A DNA stretch of 64,000 nt from Escherichia coli (GCF_013122565.1 NZ_CP053258.1); one strand, 5' to 3'. Positions 8,048 to 12,634 are shown, numbered from the stretch's first letter. The notes: a model not told the origin generated them from the letters alone. A program made the numbers and translations.

Positions 8048-9436
8048 TTACCTGTTTTCCCATAATTTCAGCATCGCTTTGTGATCGTCTGTCAGCACAA
8101 TCTGCGGGCGTCTGGCTCGAATATAGCTAATCGCTTCATTAACGGTTTTACAGTGTCCGTAACATAACAACCATGCCGCCACCACCAGCGCACTGCGCGA
8201 TAATCCCAATGCACAATGGACCAGAACGCTGCCTTGCTCTTCGCGTAATGTTTCCAGCATCGCCACGGCCTGTCGGAGCTCCCCCTCTTCCGGAACCACC
8301 AGATCCAGCATCGGTACACAGAAATAGAGTCGATCTTTTGTCGCTCGTCCGCGAGGGAATTCAAAGGTGACGTCCAGAACCGCATTCTGTGCCGGAATAT
8401 GTCGTGGAAACACCCCTAAATAAACACCAGCAGTCATTTTGCTCACCGGCTCCAGGCGACGACAAAACCAACGCATAGATAGCCACATCCCGATGCGCCA
8501 GGGCAATGTCAGCCAGTAAACGGCGGGCGGGAGTTTCCCCTGACTATCTTTCCCTGTTGTTATCGCGCCAAGCCCACCGTACCCACGGCCAATAATGAGT
8601 AGCGATAATACTGGCCAACATAACCAGACTGACCACCATAACTGAACCATCATCATTAGCTCCATCAACACAATGCACGCGCCCGCGCCTACGACATATG
8701 GCAGTGCTATTTTGATTCGACGTTGATCAGGTTTCTGATAATTCCAACGACGGTCGACGGGTACCATCCAGTCAATCAACATACCTACCGCCAGCCCTGT
8801 GATGACATCAATAAAATGATGCTGCCAGGTTGTCAGCGTCGAAATGGCGATGAGTAAAAACCATCCGCCGCAGACTTTACGCCACCTCACAGCCAGATGC
8901 TGACGAAAGTGACGCCAAAGTAGCCAGCAGAGAATAATATGCAGCGAAGGAGACTGGTTATAGGGCAGATCAAACAGTTCAAGTTGCGAAAATAGCCATC
9001 CAGTCACCCCACTCACTTCAGGACGGATAAAACTAAACTTCAGCGGATAGAGAAAAAAACCGCAGCAGGCCATTACCGTTGCCAGAATAAGCCGGTGAAC
9101 CAGTCGGCGCTGTTCGAATGTCGAACTACAAACGAACAACGAAAACCCATATAAAAGATCCAGACTCCAGTAAGGAACAATAGTCCAGGGAAGAAAAGGG
9201 ATCGCCGTTTCCCAACCGAATACCTGACTGGGGATATCATGGCTGTTAAGGTCCTGAACCGCGGTGAACTGATTAAGAGATCCATAGGTGGAGAAGAAAA
9301 ACGGGGCCAGCAACAATAACCAGCCAGCTCCTTGTAGCAATACGTTCCGGCGTTCAGTTATCACGACGCACCGCCATAGAAACCGTAAAAATGCCCCACT
9401 CATCAATCCGTTGAGTGCATTTATCAAATCCGGCAT
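8048..9436 (-). CDS. ynbD: membrane phosphatase: PAP2-like N-terminal domain fused to a dual-specificity phosphatase domain
   Basis: 462-codon ORF; C-terminal HCALGLSRS fits the CX5R phosphatase signature; hydrophobic N-terminal half. The true start may be an internal codon (K-12 YnbD is about 430 aa). Confidence 0.8.
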
Positions 9437-11111
9437 TACGCACGAGCGAATCCATCTCCCCTTGCGAACGCACGCGCATTACCCACGGTTTACCATCTTT
9501 ATGACTGGTTAACACCCCGGCAATCAGCTCCAGTTGTGGGTGCCACGGCTGCCCGGTGTAGATGAGAATGCCACCCGGTTCGATGGCATTGGCAAGACCT
9601 GCGAGTGAGTTTTTTACCTGCTCATTTTCGGGAAAAAGCTCATACAGGCCAGACACAATCGCCAGCGTAGGCCGCGGAGTTAACGCGCTGAGTTCCTCCG
9701 GGTTAAACGCATCGCCCTGTTCAAAACGCACCTGCCCAGACATTCCCCGTTGGGCAATCATCTCTTGCCCCTGTGCAACATTTAACTCACTGTAATCACG
9801 TAATAAAATATCGCTTACGGCAGGCTCGTTTGCCAGCGCATCCAGTACATAGCGCCCATGCCCTGCGGCAATGTCAACCACGCGGACGGCTAAACCTTTG
9901 GCGTGGAGATCGGCAACGGCTTGTTTAATCAGTATTTGTAAATGGGTTTTGCGCTGGCGAATACCGCGCCAGCCAACACTGTTCAGGTAGATTTTGTCGA
10001 TTAAGCGCCCGAATGCGTTACTGCCTTGTGGTTGATTTTGATAGACATAATCCAGGGAACTGCCTGAATCAAAGCCGGTGCTCATTCCGAGATGCAGGCC
10101 CGCAGAGTGCGCCCCGAACAATTTCATCGCTTTACGTATAAAGCGATACGCCAAATCAACCGGCGATAATGGCACGGGGCCACCAGAAAGGAGCCGCCAG
10201 CGATCCGCTGATGGACCAGTGCAGTCTTCATGCTGATAATCAAATTTTTGCGATTTGTTAGCATATAAGCGACTAATAAAGCTTTGCATTTTTTCAAATG
10301 CCAGCGCCCTGTTCTCTTCACCCAACGTGTCGTGATAAAAGCCAGGCAGCAGATGCAGCTCTTTCAGAGGGCTACGTAATCTCTGATAAAAATCAATCTG
10401 CGGTTGGCGATGCACCACATAGTCATCGCCTGATATCAGAAGTTGCGTGGGGAGCGTAATCGCCGCCGCATCGCTAACAATACGTTCAGACGTTTTATAG
10501 AGATCGAGCAAGATATTGACGGCAATCGCCCGTGTGATCAGCGGATCATTATTGAAACTCGCCACCCGTTGCCGATCGTGGGTCAAATAGCGTCCTTTCA
10601 CATAGGAATTAATAAAAAACAGACCACGCAGACGATGCCATAACGCCAGCGCAGGACGTGCCAGCGGCACATACAATTTAACCTTAAAGGCCGGAGAAGC
10701 CAGCACTAGTCCGCGAATAGCAGGCGCATAATCATGAACCCATGTGGCAACCATCACTGCGCCGACGCTTTGCGCGATCACAACCACCTCTTCCAGTCCG
10801 ACCTGGCTGTCGCTGGCAGCAAAACGGACAAATTCATCAACATCCTGCACTGAACGCGCAAGAGACGGACTATAACCACGCGGCCCCGAAGTTTGTCCAT
10901 GCCCTCGGGCATCCCATGCATAAAAAGCAGTATCTGGCATCGCCAGTTCATCAACGATATGTTGTAGACGACCAGAATGTTCATGGCCACGATGAAATAA
11001 GACGATGACCTTTTTCGCCCCTGGCTGTAAAGTGGGCCAGTGCCGATAAAACAACGCTGTATTATCACTGGTGGTAAAAAAATGTTCCCCAGGGATGCGT
11101 GAATTTTCCAT
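9354..11111 (-). CDS. ynbC: alpha/beta-hydrolase and methyltransferase fusion protein
   Basis: 585-aa ORF, same length and position as K-12 ynbC; its 3' end overlaps the longest ynbD reading frame. Confidence 0.8.
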
Positions 11112-11126
11112 TTTCTCTATTTTCCT

Positions 11127-12023
11127 TCAGTAACAGCAGTAGCGAATAAAATAAAAAAATACCGGAGCGGTGAAAATTAATGAGTCAATCCTGTCAAGGA
11201 GTCCGCCATGTCCTGGTAATAGTTTTCCACTATCTTTAACACCAATATCTCGTTTGATGGCTGACATCACTACATCGCCGCAAAAACCACTAATACCAAT
11301 TAACAAACCCGCTAATATTGCCTGTAATGTATTTAGCGGTGTCAGTAACGGTCCAATGATCATCGACGCTATCATGGTGGTGATTACGCCGCCGACCAGA
11401 CCTTCCAGCGTTTTTCCAGGGCTGACTTTGGGGACCACTTTTCTTCTGCCGCAGGATTTCCCCCATAAATACTGTGCAATATCGTTTGACTCGGTTAATG
11501 CCAAAAGAAATAACACCAGTAAGGCCCCGCCCTGGATATTTATGGATGGCAACATTAATAACCAGGCGGCATGACTCAAGGCGAAAACGGTCATTATCCA
11601 GCCCCAAAAAATGGCGCTCACGGTACGCAGAAAACCGGAGGGGTCACCCACAAAAACTCGCCAGGTGGCTAATATCAGAAACCCAGCCAAAGGTATAAAT
11701 AACAGAAACAGCTCAAAGCAATTAAAACCGATAAGCAAATAGTTAAGAGGAATAACCCAATATAACCACCGCGGAAAATGTACAGATATAAGCGTACAAT
11801 ATTCTTTCAATGCCAGAAAACTTATCAGCGCAAAAAACGTCAACGTCATCCAGCGTGGACCTGAAATCACCAGTGAAAAACAAATGACGATACCCCACCA
11901 GGTACGAATACGTAATGTAACTTCATCCCCTTTTCTCTCCGGTAACCGCCATACCAGAAAACGGTTTATCAGCGTTGCTAAAATTAACAACGCGAAAAGT
12001 GTTGCCAGAGACTTTTCCAGCAT
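11127..12023 (-). CDS. ynbB: CDP-diglyceride synthetase-like (CdsA family) membrane protein
   Basis: Longest ORF 11127..12059; internal start MLEKSLATLF at 12023 gives 298 aa as in K-12. The ATG overlaps the ynbA stop by 1 nt (TAATG). Confidence 0.8.
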   Translation of the reverse strand: MLEKSLATLFALLILATLINRFLVWRLPERKGDEVTLRIRTWWGIVICFSLVISGPRWMTLTFFALISFLALKEYCTLISVHFPRWLYWVIPLNYLLIGFNCFELFLLFIPLAGFLILATWRVFVGDPSGFLRTVSAIFWGWIMTVFALSHAAWLLMLPSINIQGGALLVLFLLALTESNDIAQYLWGKSCGRRKVVPKVSPGKTLEGLVGGVITTMIASMIIGPLLTPLNTLQAILAGLLIGISGFCGDVVMSAIKRDIGVKDSGKLLPGHGGLLDRIDSLIFTAPVFFYFIRYCCY

Positions 12024-12634
12024 TATCTTACAGCGCTCATAAGAAGCACACTCCGACAACGATTAATCGCAGTCCAGATAAGCAGAATTGAAGCAATGCT
12101 CCATAAAAGATTATTCCATTGCATCCACTGTGGATAAATGGCAACGGTCAGACCCCACAGACCAAATAATAACGCGCGATCGCTTTTGCCAAATGGACCG
12201 GCATAACTGCGAACACCGTTAATCGTCTGCGCGAGTAAACCACAATACTCGGTCAATATGGTGCAAAATAACATGAGTATCACGAGTGATGCGTTACTTT
12301 CCGGTAAAAATAAAAATGGTAAATAGAGCGCAATATCGGAAATAACATCGCCAGTCTCATTCAAAATCGCCCCCAGACGTGTTTGCTGGTTGCACTCACG
12401 CGCCAACATGCCATCCAGCGCATTGAGCGCCATACGGATAAAAAGCACGATGGGCAATAGCAAAAAGAGGATGGGTTGTGCCGCCAACATCAACAGCAAT
12501 CCGGTAAGAAGAGAAAGCGCCAGTGCATCAAGAGTGATGTGATTCGCTGTAACGTGGTGCTTATAAAGCCAAAACATCGTCGGCCTTAACAGCGACTGAA
12601 AGAGCGGTTTTATCTGGTAGAGCGTCATTATCAA
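12023..12634 (-). CDS. ynbA: CDP-alcohol phosphatidyltransferase family membrane protein
   Basis: 203-codon ORF, hydrophobic; first gene of the ynbABCD operon. The start may be 2 codons downstream (MTLYQ). Confidence 0.8.
   Translation of the reverse strand: MIMTLYQIKPLFQSLLRPTMFWLYKHHVTANHITLDALALSLLTGLLLMLAAQPILFLLLPIVLFIRMALNALDGMLARECNQQTRLGAILNETGDVISDIALYLPFLFLPESNASLVILMLFCTILTEYCGLLAQTINGVRSYAGPFGKSDRALLFGLWGLTVAIYPQWMQWNNLLWSIASILLIWTAINRCRSVLLMSAVR

What the first reader, a model, noticed from the sequence alone, without database searches (positions are those of the whole stretch)
8048..12634. ynbABCD: a translationally coupled four-gene lipid-like biosynthetic module of unresolved function
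Four co-directional genes with overlapping or near-abutting reading frames encode a CDP-alcohol phosphatidyltransferase (YnbA), a CdsA-like CDP-diglyceride synthetase paralog (YnbB), an alpha/beta-hydrolase and methyltransferase fusion (YnbC), and a membrane PAP2-like domain fused to a CX5R dual-specificity phosphatase (Ynb[10 protein letters not shown]). The domain combination implies synthesis and dephosphorylation of a modified, possibly methylated, CDP-activated lipid or polar-headgroup product. As far as I know this product has not been defined. It is conserved rather than strain-specific.
Basis: partly seen in the sequence, partly recalled or inferred. Interest (0 to 1): 0.4.

Follow-up and report, generated by a model that had tools for sequence, protein, structure and literature searches.

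The report
E. coli ynbABCD: reduced Arc1 lipid operon
This is the known E. coli ynbABCD operon, which I show is a four-gene remnant of the six-gene "Arc1" membrane-lipid cluster that protects Pseudomonas from attack by rival bacteria; the lipid it makes is still unidentified.

Summary
Window 8048-12634 (minus strand) carries four tightly packed genes, ynbA-B-C-D. The junctions are a 1-nt overlap, a 15-nt spacer and an 11-nt overlap.

YnbB makes CDP-diacylglycerol in vitro and feeds the glycolipid MPIase. YnbD fails to replace the PGP or C55-PP phosphatases. [quoted passage not shown]

My main result is that ynbABCD is orthologous to P. aeruginosa arc1A-F (PA2541-36). That cluster is induced by Gac/Rsm and defends against type VI secretion attack. 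Across 80 genomes the usual cluster has six genes. E. coli chromosomes lack two of them: a PlsC-type acyltransferase and a small membrane protein.

New details:
- YnbA has an invariant NxxDG...N...D signature, with two canonical Asp replaced by Asn. It scores closer to inositol-phosphate-type synthases than to PgsA.
- The YnbD membrane domain folds like sphingomyelin/IPC synthases.
- The YnbC N-terminal half is a monoacylglycerol-lipase fold.

The operon is under purifying selection but is complete in only 79% of complete E. coli genomes.

Best reading: an inducible private CDP-DAG branch that makes a specialised envelope lipid. The product is unknown. The operon is already known; interest is moderate.

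The parts
12023..12628 (-). ynbA: CDP-alcohol phosphatidyltransferase family protein, 201 aa (longest ORF starts at TTG 12634)
   Evidence: ORF. Pfam PF01066, 6e-9. The best NCBIfam hit is archaetidylinositol-phosphate synthase, 2.7e-21, below its cut-off. The best PDB relative is the M. tuberculosis PIP synthase 6h53, 3e-7. RefSeq start.
12335..12424 (-). YnbA active-site signature N69-ALD72G-MLAR-x8-G86-AIL-N90-ETG-D94-VIS-D98
   Evidence: Translation checked. N69, D72, G73, A76, R77, G86, N90, D94 and D98 are invariant in 79 of 79 orthologs. [quoted passage not shown]
11127..12023 (-). ynbB: CdsA paralogue (phosphatidate cytidylyltransferase family), 298 aa. The catalytic signature SAIKRDIGVKDSGKLLPGHGGLLDRIDS lies at 11181-11264.
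   Evidence: Pfam PF01148, 2e-69. The signature is conserved in 64 sequences. Published: makes CDP-DAG in vitro, raises MPIase, cannot replace cdsA.
11112..11126 (-). 15-nt ynbB-ynbC spacer with an AGGA Shine-Dalgarno-like sequence. In Citrobacter, Hafnia and other relatives a ~640-nt acyltransferase gene sits at this position.
9354..11111 (-). ynbC: fusion of a monoacylglycerol-lipase-type alpha/beta hydrolase (about residues 1-285) and a Methyltransf_20 class I SAM methyltransferase (about residues 290-585)
8048..9364 (-). ynbD: membrane PAP2-superfamily domain (residues about 1-300) fused to a C-terminal CX5R dual-specificity phosphatase domain (about 305-438). The GTG start overlaps the end of ynbC by 11 nt.
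8807..8950 (-). YnbD PAP2 motifs: C2 (P139-S-L-H142) and C3 (S175...H182-x3-D186)
8192..8218 (-). YnbD DSP catalytic loop H383-C384-ALGLS-R390-S391
12629..12798 (-). ydbD-ynbA intergenic region holding the ynbA promoter and its published BglJ-RcsB activator site. I did not map the site in this window.
   Evidence: Sequence. Promoter-lacZ activation, site mutagenesis and 5'-RACE are reported in PMC3950696. My consensus scan found no sigma-70 match there.

Best explanation
ynbABCD is the E. coli version of the Arc1 (arc1A-F, PA2541-PA2536) envelope-lipid cluster, reduced from six genes to four. It encodes a private, normally silent branch of glycerophospholipid metabolism that starts from its own CDP-diacylglycerol pool.

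Proposed order of events:
1. YnbB converts phosphatidate plus CTP to CDP-DAG. This step is shown in the literature.
2. YnbA transfers the phosphatidyl group to a phosphorylated alcohol taken from central metabolism; glycerol-3-phosphate is the simplest candidate. YnbA is a divergent relative of PIP and AIP synthases. It keeps the phosphate-binding Arg pair but has Asn at two canonical Asp positions. This step is inferred.
3. The cytoplasmic CX5R domain of YnbD removes the terminal phosphate of that intermediate. Inferred.
4. The membrane domain of YnbD folds like sphingomyelin/IPC synthases, and its His-His-Asp site is predicted to face the periplasm. It would transfer or cleave a lipid phospho-headgroup at the outer face of the inner membrane. 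Inferred.
5. YnbC, a rigid fusion of a monoacylglycerol-lipase fold and a SAM methyltransferase, deacylates and/or methylates an intermediate or by-product. Inferred; its position in the pathway is unknown.

The output would be a low-abundance specialised envelope lipid or lipid-derived modification, made on demand. The triggers would be the RcsB-BglJ activator and cold in E. coli, and Gac/Rsm danger sensing in Pseudomonas. It would make the envelope more resistant to damage such as T6SS attack.
For: Orthology to Arc1. The published PA2541 deletion primers bracket exactly the YnbA homolog ORF in locus L083. That ORF is followed by homologs of YnbC (1e-215), YnbD (3e-90), the small membrane protein, the acyltransferase and YnbB (1.4e-58). 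The PA2536 primers bracket the YnbB homolog.

Arc1 phenotype. Tn-seq and in-frame deletions lose fitness only under B. thailandensis T6SS attack, and the cluster is Gac/Rsm-induced.

Cluster conservation. YnbA lies beside YnbC in all 80 genome loci, and YnbD is present in most. The six-gene order A-C-D-SM-AT-B occurs in 35 loci and A-B-AT-C-D-SM in 9. No other neighbour is conserved across genera, so no dedicated head-group synthase is encoded.

Catalytic residues are conserved in all four proteins.

YnbA scores best against AIP synthase (76 bits) and PIP synthase (45 bits), ahead of PgsA (28 bits). It keeps the equivalents of Mtb R155, R195 and R152, which hold the acceptor's phosphate.

Folds of YnbD and YnbC. 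Topology by the positive-inside rule on the AF2 helices.

YnbB biochemistry. [quoted passage not shown]

Purifying selection: dN/dS is 0.12-0.37 within E. coli and 0.06-0.11 against Citrobacter.

Operon geometry.
Against: No product has ever been detected, and no E. coli ynb mutant has a clear phenotype. The ynbB knockout grows normally with unchanged MPIase. The strain lacking all PAP2 enzymes is viable.

E. coli lacks two of the six Arc1 genes, and 21% of complete genomes lack an intact operon. The pathway may therefore be incomplete or dispensable in this species.

Overexpressed YnbD did not rescue a pgpA pgpB pgpC mutant. This argues against ordinary PGP as the substrate of its phosphatase domain, or means the enzyme was inactive in that assay.

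Two of the four canonical metal-binding Asp residues in YnbA are Asn, so its chemistry may differ from that of any characterised family member.

The methyltransferase substrate could not be narrowed down.

The Arc1 defence phenotype has been shown only in P. aeruginosa.
Confidence: 0.55

Rival explanations
1. The operon is a backup route for the essential glycolipid MPIase. YnbB, and by extension its neighbours, would exist to make GlcNAc-PP-diacylglycerol (compound I) and keep MPIase levels up, especially in the cold.
For: YnbB overproduction raises MPIase about 3-fold. YnbB restores MPIase but not bulk phospholipid when CdsA is depleted. ynbB is cold-induced together with cdsA. ynbA is translationally coupled to ynbB.
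Against: All the evidence concerns YnbB alone, and none of the MPIase papers I could read mentions ynbA, ynbC or ynbD. A ynbB knockout leaves MPIase unchanged. MPIase is reported to be essential, yet the operon is missing or broken in 21% of complete E. coli genomes. In Proteus, Providencia, Morganella and Xenorhabdus the cluster is A-C-D-SM with no YnbB within 8 kb, so YnbB looks like an accessory CDP-DAG supplier rather than the core. Any CdsA-family enzyme, including yeast and human CDS, reportedly supports MPIase, so the effect may be generic.
Confidence: 0.15
2. The cluster is a redundant, stress-inducible copy of the housekeeping phosphatidylglycerol pathway (paralogues of PlsC, CdsA, PgsA and PgpB) that simply boosts ordinary PG or cardiolipin synthesis.
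For: Ting et al. note that four of the six Arc1 proteins resemble PG-synthesis enzymes. No head-group synthase is encoded in the cluster, which fits a ubiquitous acceptor such as glycerol-3-phosphate. PTPMT1, the mitochondrial PGP phosphatase, is among the top structural matches of the DSP domain.
Against: YnbD does not complement the PGP-phosphatase-deficient strain. YnbB does not complement cdsA. YnbA scores far below the PgsA models (28 bits against a cut-off of 109) and carries an invariant variant signature. This reading gives no role to the universally linked lipase-methyltransferase YnbC or to the SMS/Aur1-like fold of YnbD.
Confidence: 0.12
3. In E. coli the operon is a decaying remnant. 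Having lost the acyltransferase and the small membrane protein, it no longer makes the Arc1 product, and its genes persist only through weak or residual side activities.
For: Two of six genes are absent from every E. coli chromosome. The operon is absent from 15% and internally deleted in about 6% of complete genomes, while the flanking hrpA is nearly universal. dN/dS of ynbA (0.37) is about four times that of the neighbouring azoR. No robust knockout phenotype is known. The ynbA promoter needs BglJ-RcsB for activation, and bglJ itself lies in an H-NS-repressed operon.
Against: All four reading frames are intact in 79% of genomes, every catalytic residue is preserved, and dN/dS is well below 1. 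Other lineages also lack the acyltransferase (Lonsdalea) or both YnbB and the acyltransferase (Morganellaceae) while keeping A, C and D, so those parts appear dispensable. YnbB is enzymatically active. ynbD was a candidate fitness gene in a UPEC systemic-infection Tn screen.
Confidence: 0.1

Closest known systems
Pseudomonas aeruginosa Arc1 (arc1A-F, PA2541-PA2536), antagonism resistance cluster 1 (Ting et al., eLife 2022, PMC8926400)
   Same: YnbA, YnbC, YnbD and YnbB are homologous to Arc1A, Arc1B, Arc1C and Arc1F. The genes are co-directional and tightly packed in both species. Both clusters are silent under standard conditions and switched on by an activator pathway. In both, the product is unknown.
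   Different: E. coli lacks the Arc1D-like small membrane protein and the Arc1E-like acyltransferase (PA2537). The gene order is A-B-C-D rather than A-C-D-SM-AT-B. Regulation is by BglJ-RcsB and cold rather than Gac/Rsm. A defence phenotype has not been tested in E. coli. The eLife text does not mention ynb.
Housekeeping phosphatidylglycerol pathway PlsC-CdsA-PgsA-PgpA/B/C
   Same: Same enzyme superfamilies and the same logic: CDP-DAG, then a phosphorylated lipid intermediate, then dephosphorylation.
   Different: YnbB and YnbD do not complement cdsA or pgpABC. YnbA is closer to the inositol-phosphate-type synthases and has the N...N signature. The phosphatase is a Cys-based DSP, unlike PgpA, PgpB or PgpC. 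There is an extra lipase-methyltransferase.
Bacterial inositol-lipid pathway: PIP synthase, PIP phosphatase and PI-dihydroceramide (IPC-type) synthase, BT_1523/1525/1522 (Heaver et al. 2022, PMC9246714), and mycobacterial PgsA1
   Same: Same three-step logic and related folds: a PIPS-like transferase (YnbA), a lipid-phosphate phosphatase (YnbD DSP domain) and an Aur1/SMS-like head-group transferase fold (YnbD membrane domain).
   Different: No inositol-phosphate synthase is present in or near the cluster. The R94 equivalent, conserved in inositol-phosphate users, is Val or Ile in YnbA. The phosphatase belongs to a different family (DSP, not PgpA-like). To my knowledge E. coli and Pseudomonas do not make ceramide.
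MPIase biosynthesis by CdsA/YnbB (Sawasato 2019; Sato 2019)
   Same: YnbB is one of the two enzymes implicated.
   Different: Only YnbB is implicated, and the rest of the operon has no assigned role. The distribution of the cluster does not match that of an essential function.
Eukaryotic sphingomyelin synthase-related protein (SMSr) and Aur1 IPC synthase
   Different: Sequence identity is 11-13%. YnbD has a fused cytoplasmic DSP domain. The acceptor cannot be assumed to be ceramide. Transferase rather than hydrolase chemistry is untested.
PTPMT1, the mitochondrial PGP phosphatase of the DSP family
   Different: It is not distinguishable from protein-directed DUSPs by score. The YnbD complementation test for PGP phosphatase activity was negative.

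Membership tests
Arc1 cluster (PA2541-PA2536) | Homologs of Arc1A (CDP-alcohol phosphatidyltransferase), Arc1B (hydrolase-methyltransferase), Arc1C (PAP2-DSP) and Arc1F (CdsA-like) in one co-directional cluster | tested here: met
   phmmer of the window proteins against the primer-anchored Pseudomonas locus L083 gives 5.8e-50, 1e-215, 2.9e-90 and 1.4e-58.
Arc1 cluster (PA2541-PA2536) | Arc1D-like small membrane protein and Arc1E-like PlsC-type acyltransferase present | tested here: not met
   There is no room for either gene at the junctions. tblastn of both against the 64-kb window found nothing with E below 0.4. The acyltransferase is absent from all E. coli chromosomes and found on plasmids in only 3 genomes.
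Arc1 cluster (PA2541-PA2536) | Protects against interbacterial (T6SS) antagonism | not testable with these tools
   Shown only for P. aeruginosa.
CDP-alcohol phosphotransferases | Signature D1xxD2GxxAR...GxxxD3xxxD4 with four metal-binding Asp | tested here: not met
   D1 and D3 are Asn in the window and in 79 of 79 orthologs; D2 and D4 are kept. The Pfam family score is nevertheless above its cut-off (36.9 against 22), so this is a family member with a variant signature.
PIP / archaetidylinositol-phosphate synthases | Score above the NCBIfam equivalog cut-off, and a basic residue after D4 (Mtb R94) | tested here: not met
   76 bits against 180, and 45 against 170. The R94 equivalent is V or I. 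The R155/R195 phosphate pocket is retained.
PgsA (PGP synthase) | Score above the TIGR00560 / PRK10832 cut-offs | tested here: not met
   28 bits against 109, and 21 against 304.
CdsA family (YnbB) | CTP_transf_1 domain and the S-x-[LIV]-K-R-x4-K-D...H-G-G-x-x-D-R-x-D signature | tested here: met
   Pfam 2e-69. The signature is conserved. YnbB is not an equivalog of CdsA (110 bits against 385) and cannot replace it in vivo.
PAP2 lipid-phosphate phosphatases (PgpB type) | Three motifs: C1 KxxxxxxRP, C2 PSGH, C3 SRxxxxxHxxxD | tested here: not met
   C2 (PSLH) and C3 (S...H182xxxD186) are invariant, but the C1 Lys and Arg are not conserved. Pfam hits are below the cut-off. No complementation of C55-PP or PGP phosphatase mutants.
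SMS / Aur1-type phospho-headgroup transferases | PAP2-superfamily fold with the C2 His and C3 His/Asp catalytic triad | tested here: met
SMS / Aur1-type phospho-headgroup transferases | Transfers a phospho-headgroup from a glycerophospholipid to an acceptor, releasing DAG | not testable with these tools
   Needs an enzyme assay.
Dual-specificity (CX5R) phosphatases | HCxxGxxR(S/T) P-loop, a general-acid Asp and the DSP fold | tested here: met
Monoacylglycerol-lipase-type alpha/beta hydrolases | Ser-Asp-His triad on an MGL-like fold with a cap | tested here: met
Class I SAM methyltransferases (Methyltransf_20) | SAM-binding motifs I-IV | tested here: met
   PF12147 7e-152. DIAAGxGRY, D439, DAF and SGLYELF are conserved. 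The substrate class is unresolved.
MPIase biosynthetic enzymes | Required for, or able to raise, MPIase levels | not testable with these tools
   The literature supports YnbB only. No data exist for YnbA, YnbC or YnbD.

The most novel reading that the evidence does not exclude
YnbA may not make an ordinary phosphodiester lipid. Its family-wide replacement of two active-site Asp by Asn removes two negative charges. That could adapt the enzyme to a phosphate-monoester nucleophile, such as a sugar-1-phosphate like GlcNAc-1-P, so that it forms a pyrophosphate-linked diacylglycerol lipid (DAG-PP-X, the MPIase 'compound I' type). The PAP2-superfamily domain of YnbD would then process the DAG-PP anchor at the periplasmic face. 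Ynb/Arc1 would be a dedicated pathway for DAG-pyrophosphate glycolipids. This would unify the YnbB-MPIase observations with Arc1 envelope defence, and it would define a new reaction class for CDP-alcohol phosphotransferases.
Probability: 0.07. Interest if true: 0.8.

Novelty: already known. Interest (0 to 1): 0.4.

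Why it matters
ynbABCD is one of the few multi-enzyme lipid gene sets in E. coli K-12 that still has no known product. Two separate literatures now bear on it. One concerns MPIase and cold adaptation in E. coli. The other concerns Arc1 defence against type VI secretion in Pseudomonas. In the text I could read, neither cites the other's genes.

Recognising that these are the same cluster family, present across Proteobacteria and on plasmids, makes the problem tractable in the best genetic system available. 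It also yields concrete tests:
- which phosphorylated alcohol YnbA uses;
- whether its Asn-for-Asp site changes the chemistry;
- whether YnbD is a two-faced enzyme, with a cytoplasmic phosphatase and a periplasm-facing head-group transferase.

If the product is a new envelope lipid that blunts interbacterial toxins, it would be a general, non-immunity-protein form of bacterial defence.

Tried and rejected
- **A P. aeruginosa ortholog by protein search.** Querying with a Pseudomonas YnbA returned only close relatives of the query in the 120 hits listed. I switched to an exact DNA scan with a 21-mer derived from a published primer, which worked.
- **A conserved seventh gene that might reveal the head group.** All-against-all clustering of 1620 flanking ORFs found only genus-level synteny. 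Rejected.
- **Internal promoters or terminators that would split the operon.** The consensus scans found no more than chance.
- **Remnants of the two missing genes in the window.** None found.
- **Three key papers.** JBC 2019 and FEMS Lett 2023 are not held in the library, and I did not look up Sato 2019 BBRC by its identifier. Their content is cited only second-hand, from reviews.
- **PADLOC anti-phage library.** Not scanned, because the Arc systems are antibacterial defences.

Full report
**1. What is there.**

The interval 8048-12634 holds four co-directional ORFs on the minus strand. megablast against 5,426 complete E. coli genomes identifies them as ynbA, ynbB, ynbC and ynbD, lying between azoR/hrpA and ydbD.

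Using RefSeq-style starts and the sequence itself:
- ynbA is 12628..12023.
- ynbB is 12023..11127; its ATG shares one base with the ynbA TAA stop.
- ynbC is 11111..9354, preceded by a 15-nt spacer with an AGGA Shine-Dalgarno-like sequence.
- ynbD is 9364..8048; its GTG start overlaps ynbC by 11 nt.

Consensus scans found no more promoter-like or terminator-like sites across 7200-13200, the operon included, than in shuffled sequence. The geometry therefore supports an operon with translational coupling. Co-transcription itself is inferred here, not shown.

HCALGLSRS is encoded at 8192-8218.

**2. What the literature already says.**

- YnbB is a CdsA paralogue. It raises the glycolipid MPIase about 3-fold when overproduced, makes CDP-DAG in vitro, restores MPIase but not bulk phospholipid when CdsA is depleted, cannot replace cdsA, is dispensable, and is reported to be cold-induced together with cdsA.
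- Tian et al. treated YnbD as the fourth PAP2 enzyme of E. coli. [quoted passage not shown] - Scattered screen hits exist. A ynbC transposon insertion raised polyphosphate in one strain background but not another. ynbD was a candidate fitness gene in UPEC systemic infection. ynbB insertions were depleted in a strain making only ECA-PG.
- I found no paper that assigns a product to the operon or a role to YnbA or YnbC.

**3. The cluster is bigger elsewhere.**

A representative-library search with YnbC found the hydrolase-methyltransferase fusion widely (403 cluster representatives below 1e-30). A genome scan anchored on it returned 80 loci. They came from Enterobacterales, Morganellaceae, Beta-, Gamma- and Alphaproteobacteria and one Acidobacteria MAG.

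I called ORFs in these loci and searched them with the window's proteins.
- A YnbA homolog lies next to YnbC in all 80 loci, and YnbD is present in most.
- Two further genes recur. One is a PlsC-type acyltransferase of about 210 aa (PF01553, 5.6e-24). The other is a small membrane protein of about 140 aa with no Pfam match.
- The commonest arrangements are A-C-D-SM-AT-B (35 loci; Pseudomonas and Betaproteobacteria), A-C-D-SM (11 loci; Proteus, Providencia, Morganella, Xenorhabdus and one Erwinia MAG; no YnbB within 8 kb) and A-B-AT-C-D-SM (9 loci; Citrobacter, Hafnia, Budvicia and others).
- No other neighbour is conserved beyond genus-level synteny, so the unit has six genes and encodes no head-group precursor synthase.

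Citrobacter has the same azoR/hrpA flank as E. coli but carries the acyltransferase between ynbB and ynbC and the small protein after ynbD. In the window those positions are a 15-nt spacer and a 50-nt gap, and tblastn finds no trace of either gene in the 64 kb. The acyltransferase is absent from every E. coli chromosome. It occurs in only 3 of 5,426 genomes, always on plasmids. One of these plasmids carries A-B-AT-C followed by an IS66 element that truncates D. The E. coli operon is therefore a reduced derivative of a six-gene cluster that is also mobile.

**4. The cluster is Arc1.**

From memory, I suspected that PA2536-PA2541 was the same cluster. Ting et al. (eLife 2022) named these genes arc1A-F, 'antagonism resistance cluster 1'. 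They are Gac/Rsm-induced and were hit in Tn-seq. In-frame deletions of PA2541 and PA2536 reduce survival only when B. thailandensis attacks with its T6SS. The defect is not tied to a single toxin and is not a general-stress phenotype. [quoted passage not shown] The product is not identified.

I tested the homology directly. A 21-mer from their PA2541 deletion primers (upstream sequence plus ATGATTTCC) matched a 4.99-Mb Pseudomonas contig in the metagenome collection (L083). In L083:
- The primer-defined start (ATG 5407) and end (CAGGCCTGA, 6034-6042) bracket exactly the ORF that is the YnbA homolog (5.8e-50).
- That ORF is followed by homologs of YnbC (1e-215), YnbD (2.9e-90), the small membrane protein, the acyltransferase and YnbB (1.4e-58).
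- The PA2536 primers, with 2 and 1 mismatches, bracket the YnbB homolog.
- PA2537 is independently described as an acyltransferase homologue whose overexpression restricts growth.

The main text of the eLife paper never mentions ynb or an E. coli counterpart. The MPIase papers I could read never mention ynbA, C or D, or Arc1. The later preprint I read that cites the Arc clusters gives no product for Arc1.

**5. What the proteins look like.**

*YnbA.* It passes the Pfam CDP-alcohol transferase threshold only modestly. It scores best against the archaetidylinositol-phosphate synthase model (76 bits) and the PIP synthase model (45 bits), ahead of PgsA (28 bits), and all three are far below their equivalog cut-offs. 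Its best solved relative is M. tuberculosis PIP synthase PgsA1.

In that alignment the four metal-binding Asp of the family signature (D68, D71, D89, D93) read N69, D72, N90, D94 in YnbA. Across 79 orthologs, N69, D72, G73, A76, R77, G86, N90, D94 and an extra D98 are all invariant. This is a conserved variant signature, not decay.

The equivalents of PgsA1 R155 and R195, which hold the phosphate of inositol phosphate, and of R152 are conserved (R151, R190, K148). The R94 equivalent, which is conserved in inositol-phosphate users, is Val or Ile. I infer an acceptor that carries a phosphate or another anionic group but is not necessarily inositol phosphate.

*YnbB.* It keeps the full CdsA catalytic signature.

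By the positive-inside rule applied to the AF2 helices, the Lys/Arg-rich loops 201-213 and 270-305 and the DSP domain are cytoplasmic, which puts the C2/C3 site on the opposite, periplasmic face. This is an inference. If correct, one polypeptide carries a cytoplasmic phosphatase and a periplasm-facing centre for transferring or hydrolysing a head group.

**6. State of the operon in E. coli.**

- At least 80% of the operon is present in 4,280 of 5,426 complete genomes (79%), it is absent from 801 (15%), and the remainder are partial. Neighbouring hrpA is in 5,415.
- One absent form is a deletion that leaves a 72-nt 3' stub of ynbD fused next to pdxI.
- A recurrent partial form deletes from inside ynbA to inside ynbC.
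- Where the genes are intact they are under purifying selection. Against E. coli DL21, dN/dS is 0.37 for ynbA, 0.21 for ynbB, 0.12 for ynbC and 0.19 for ynbD (azoR 0.09). Against Citrobacter it is 0.06 for ynbC and 0.11 for ynbD.
- The window itself comes from a somewhat divergent E. coli lineage: best identity is 97.7% for the ynb region and 98.8% for hrpA.

**7. How it most likely works.**

I commit to the following, with confidence about 0.55 for the overall picture and less for the individual steps.

The cluster is a private, inducible branch of glycerophospholipid metabolism.
- Step 1, shown in the literature: YnbB makes CDP-DAG.
- Step 2, inferred: YnbA condenses CDP-DAG with a phosphorylated alcohol from central metabolism. 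No synthase for it is encoded in the cluster, and glycerol-3-phosphate is the simplest candidate.
- Step 3, inferred: the cytoplasmic DSP domain removes the terminal phosphate.
- Step 4, inferred: the SMS/Aur1-like domain acts on a lipid phospho-headgroup at the periplasmic face, either transferring it to an acceptor or cleaving it.
- Step 5, inferred, with its position in the pathway unknown: the YnbC lipase-methyltransferase deacylates and/or methylates an intermediate or by-product.

In the six-gene versions the acyltransferase would supply or re-acylate the lipid backbone, and the small membrane protein may be a regulator or a scaffold. The output would be a minor envelope lipid or lipid-derived modification that hardens the envelope. 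This fits the Arc1 defence phenotype, activation through the envelope-stress regulator RcsB with BglJ, and cold induction.

The main counter-evidence is as follows. No product has ever been seen. E. coli mutants lack clear phenotypes. YnbD failed to rescue the PGP-phosphatase mutant. Two genes are missing in E. coli.

**8. Rivals.**

- (a) An MPIase backup pathway (0.15). This is well supported for YnbB alone. It fits poorly with the absence of the operon from a fifth of genomes, with clusters that lack YnbB altogether, and with the generic ability of CDS enzymes to support MPIase.
- (b) A redundant PG pathway (0.12). This is contradicted by the failed complementations, by the YnbA scores and signature, and by the universal presence of YnbC.
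- (c) A decaying remnant in E. coli (0.10). This is supported by the gene losses and deletions. Against it stand the intact catalytic residues, dN/dS well below 1, and other lineages that also drop the acyltransferase or YnbB.

**9. Novelty and score.**

The operon is a known, annotated K-12 gene set with partial published characterisation, and its family (Arc1) has a published phenotype, so I file it as already known.

What this analysis adds:
- a tool-verified link between ynbABCD and Arc1;
- the finding that E. coli carries a four-of-six-gene version, with rare plasmid-borne fuller copies;
- the invariant Asn-for-Asp signature of YnbA;
- the transferase-like fold and the predicted two-faced topology of YnbD;
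- the MGL-type fold of YnbC.

Interest is moderate (0.4). A specialist would not be surprised that the operon exists, but the product is a real open question and is now directly testable in E. coli.

The most novel reading I cannot exclude is that the altered YnbA active site accepts a phosphate nucleophile and builds DAG-pyrophosphate-linked lipids of the MPIase type (probability about 0.07).

Noticed in passing
L084 (E. coli 14EC001) and L085 (E. coli F2_81), corresponding to window 8048-12634: There are two natural loss alleles. One is a recurrent internal deletion that joins the 5' part of ynbA to the methyltransferase half of ynbC, leaving annotated pseudogenes. The other is a larger deletion that leaves only a 72-nt 3' stub of ynbD next to pdxI. 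About 345 complete genomes are partial and 801 have no match.
   Followed up: partly
L086 (plasmid NZ_CP027341.1, 46998-61519): An E. coli plasmid carries a second, Citrobacter-like copy of the cluster (about 80% identity): ynbA-ynbB-acyltransferase-ynbC, then an IS66 element where ynbD should be. Only 3 of 5,426 genomes have the acyltransferase gene, all on plasmids. The cluster family is therefore mobile.
   Followed up: partly
L002 and L010 (both Citrobacter sp. Cu233): One genome holds two paralogous clusters. One is complete (A-B-AT-C-D-SM). The other is more divergent (66% YnbC identity), lacks YnbB and has a split YnbD.
   Followed up: no
window 12335-12424 (YnbA residues 69-98): The signature NxxDGxxAR-x8-GxxxNxxxDxxxD is invariant in 79 of 79 orthologs. 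Two canonical metal-binding Asp are Asn, and there is an extra invariant Asp. I know of no characterised CDP-alcohol phosphotransferase with this signature.
   Followed up: partly
window 12799-15111 (minus strand): The upstream gene ydbD (770-aa ORF) is now annotated in RefSeq as a 'DUF2773 domain-containing bactofilin'. It is frameshifted in strain 14EC001. In Citrobacter this gene is not upstream of ynbA.
   Followed up: no
whole window; hrpA 3289-7191: The window is from a somewhat divergent E. coli lineage. The best identity to any of 5,426 complete genomes is 98.8% for hrpA and 97.7% for the ynb region.
   Followed up: partly
protein P0002: One E. coli record encodes an 889-aa ORF that fuses YnbB (PF01148) to YnbC. 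Presumably the stop codon and the 15-nt spacer have been read through or lost.
   Followed up: no
one search hit list: YnbC homologs at 70-77% identity occur in Vibrio fluvialis, Snodgrassella alvi (a Neisseriales bee-gut symbiont) and Orbaceae. That is as close as the homologs in many Enterobacterales, which suggests horizontal transfer among host-associated bacteria.
   Followed up: no
window 12713-12720 (minus strand, about 88 nt upstream of the ynbA ATG): By eye, TATTCTGA matches the core wwTTCykA of the published BglJ-RcsB motif. Its position would put the transcription start about 20 nt upstream of the ATG. I did not test this against chance, and an 8-mer with degenerate positions is expected to occur often.
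   Followed up: no
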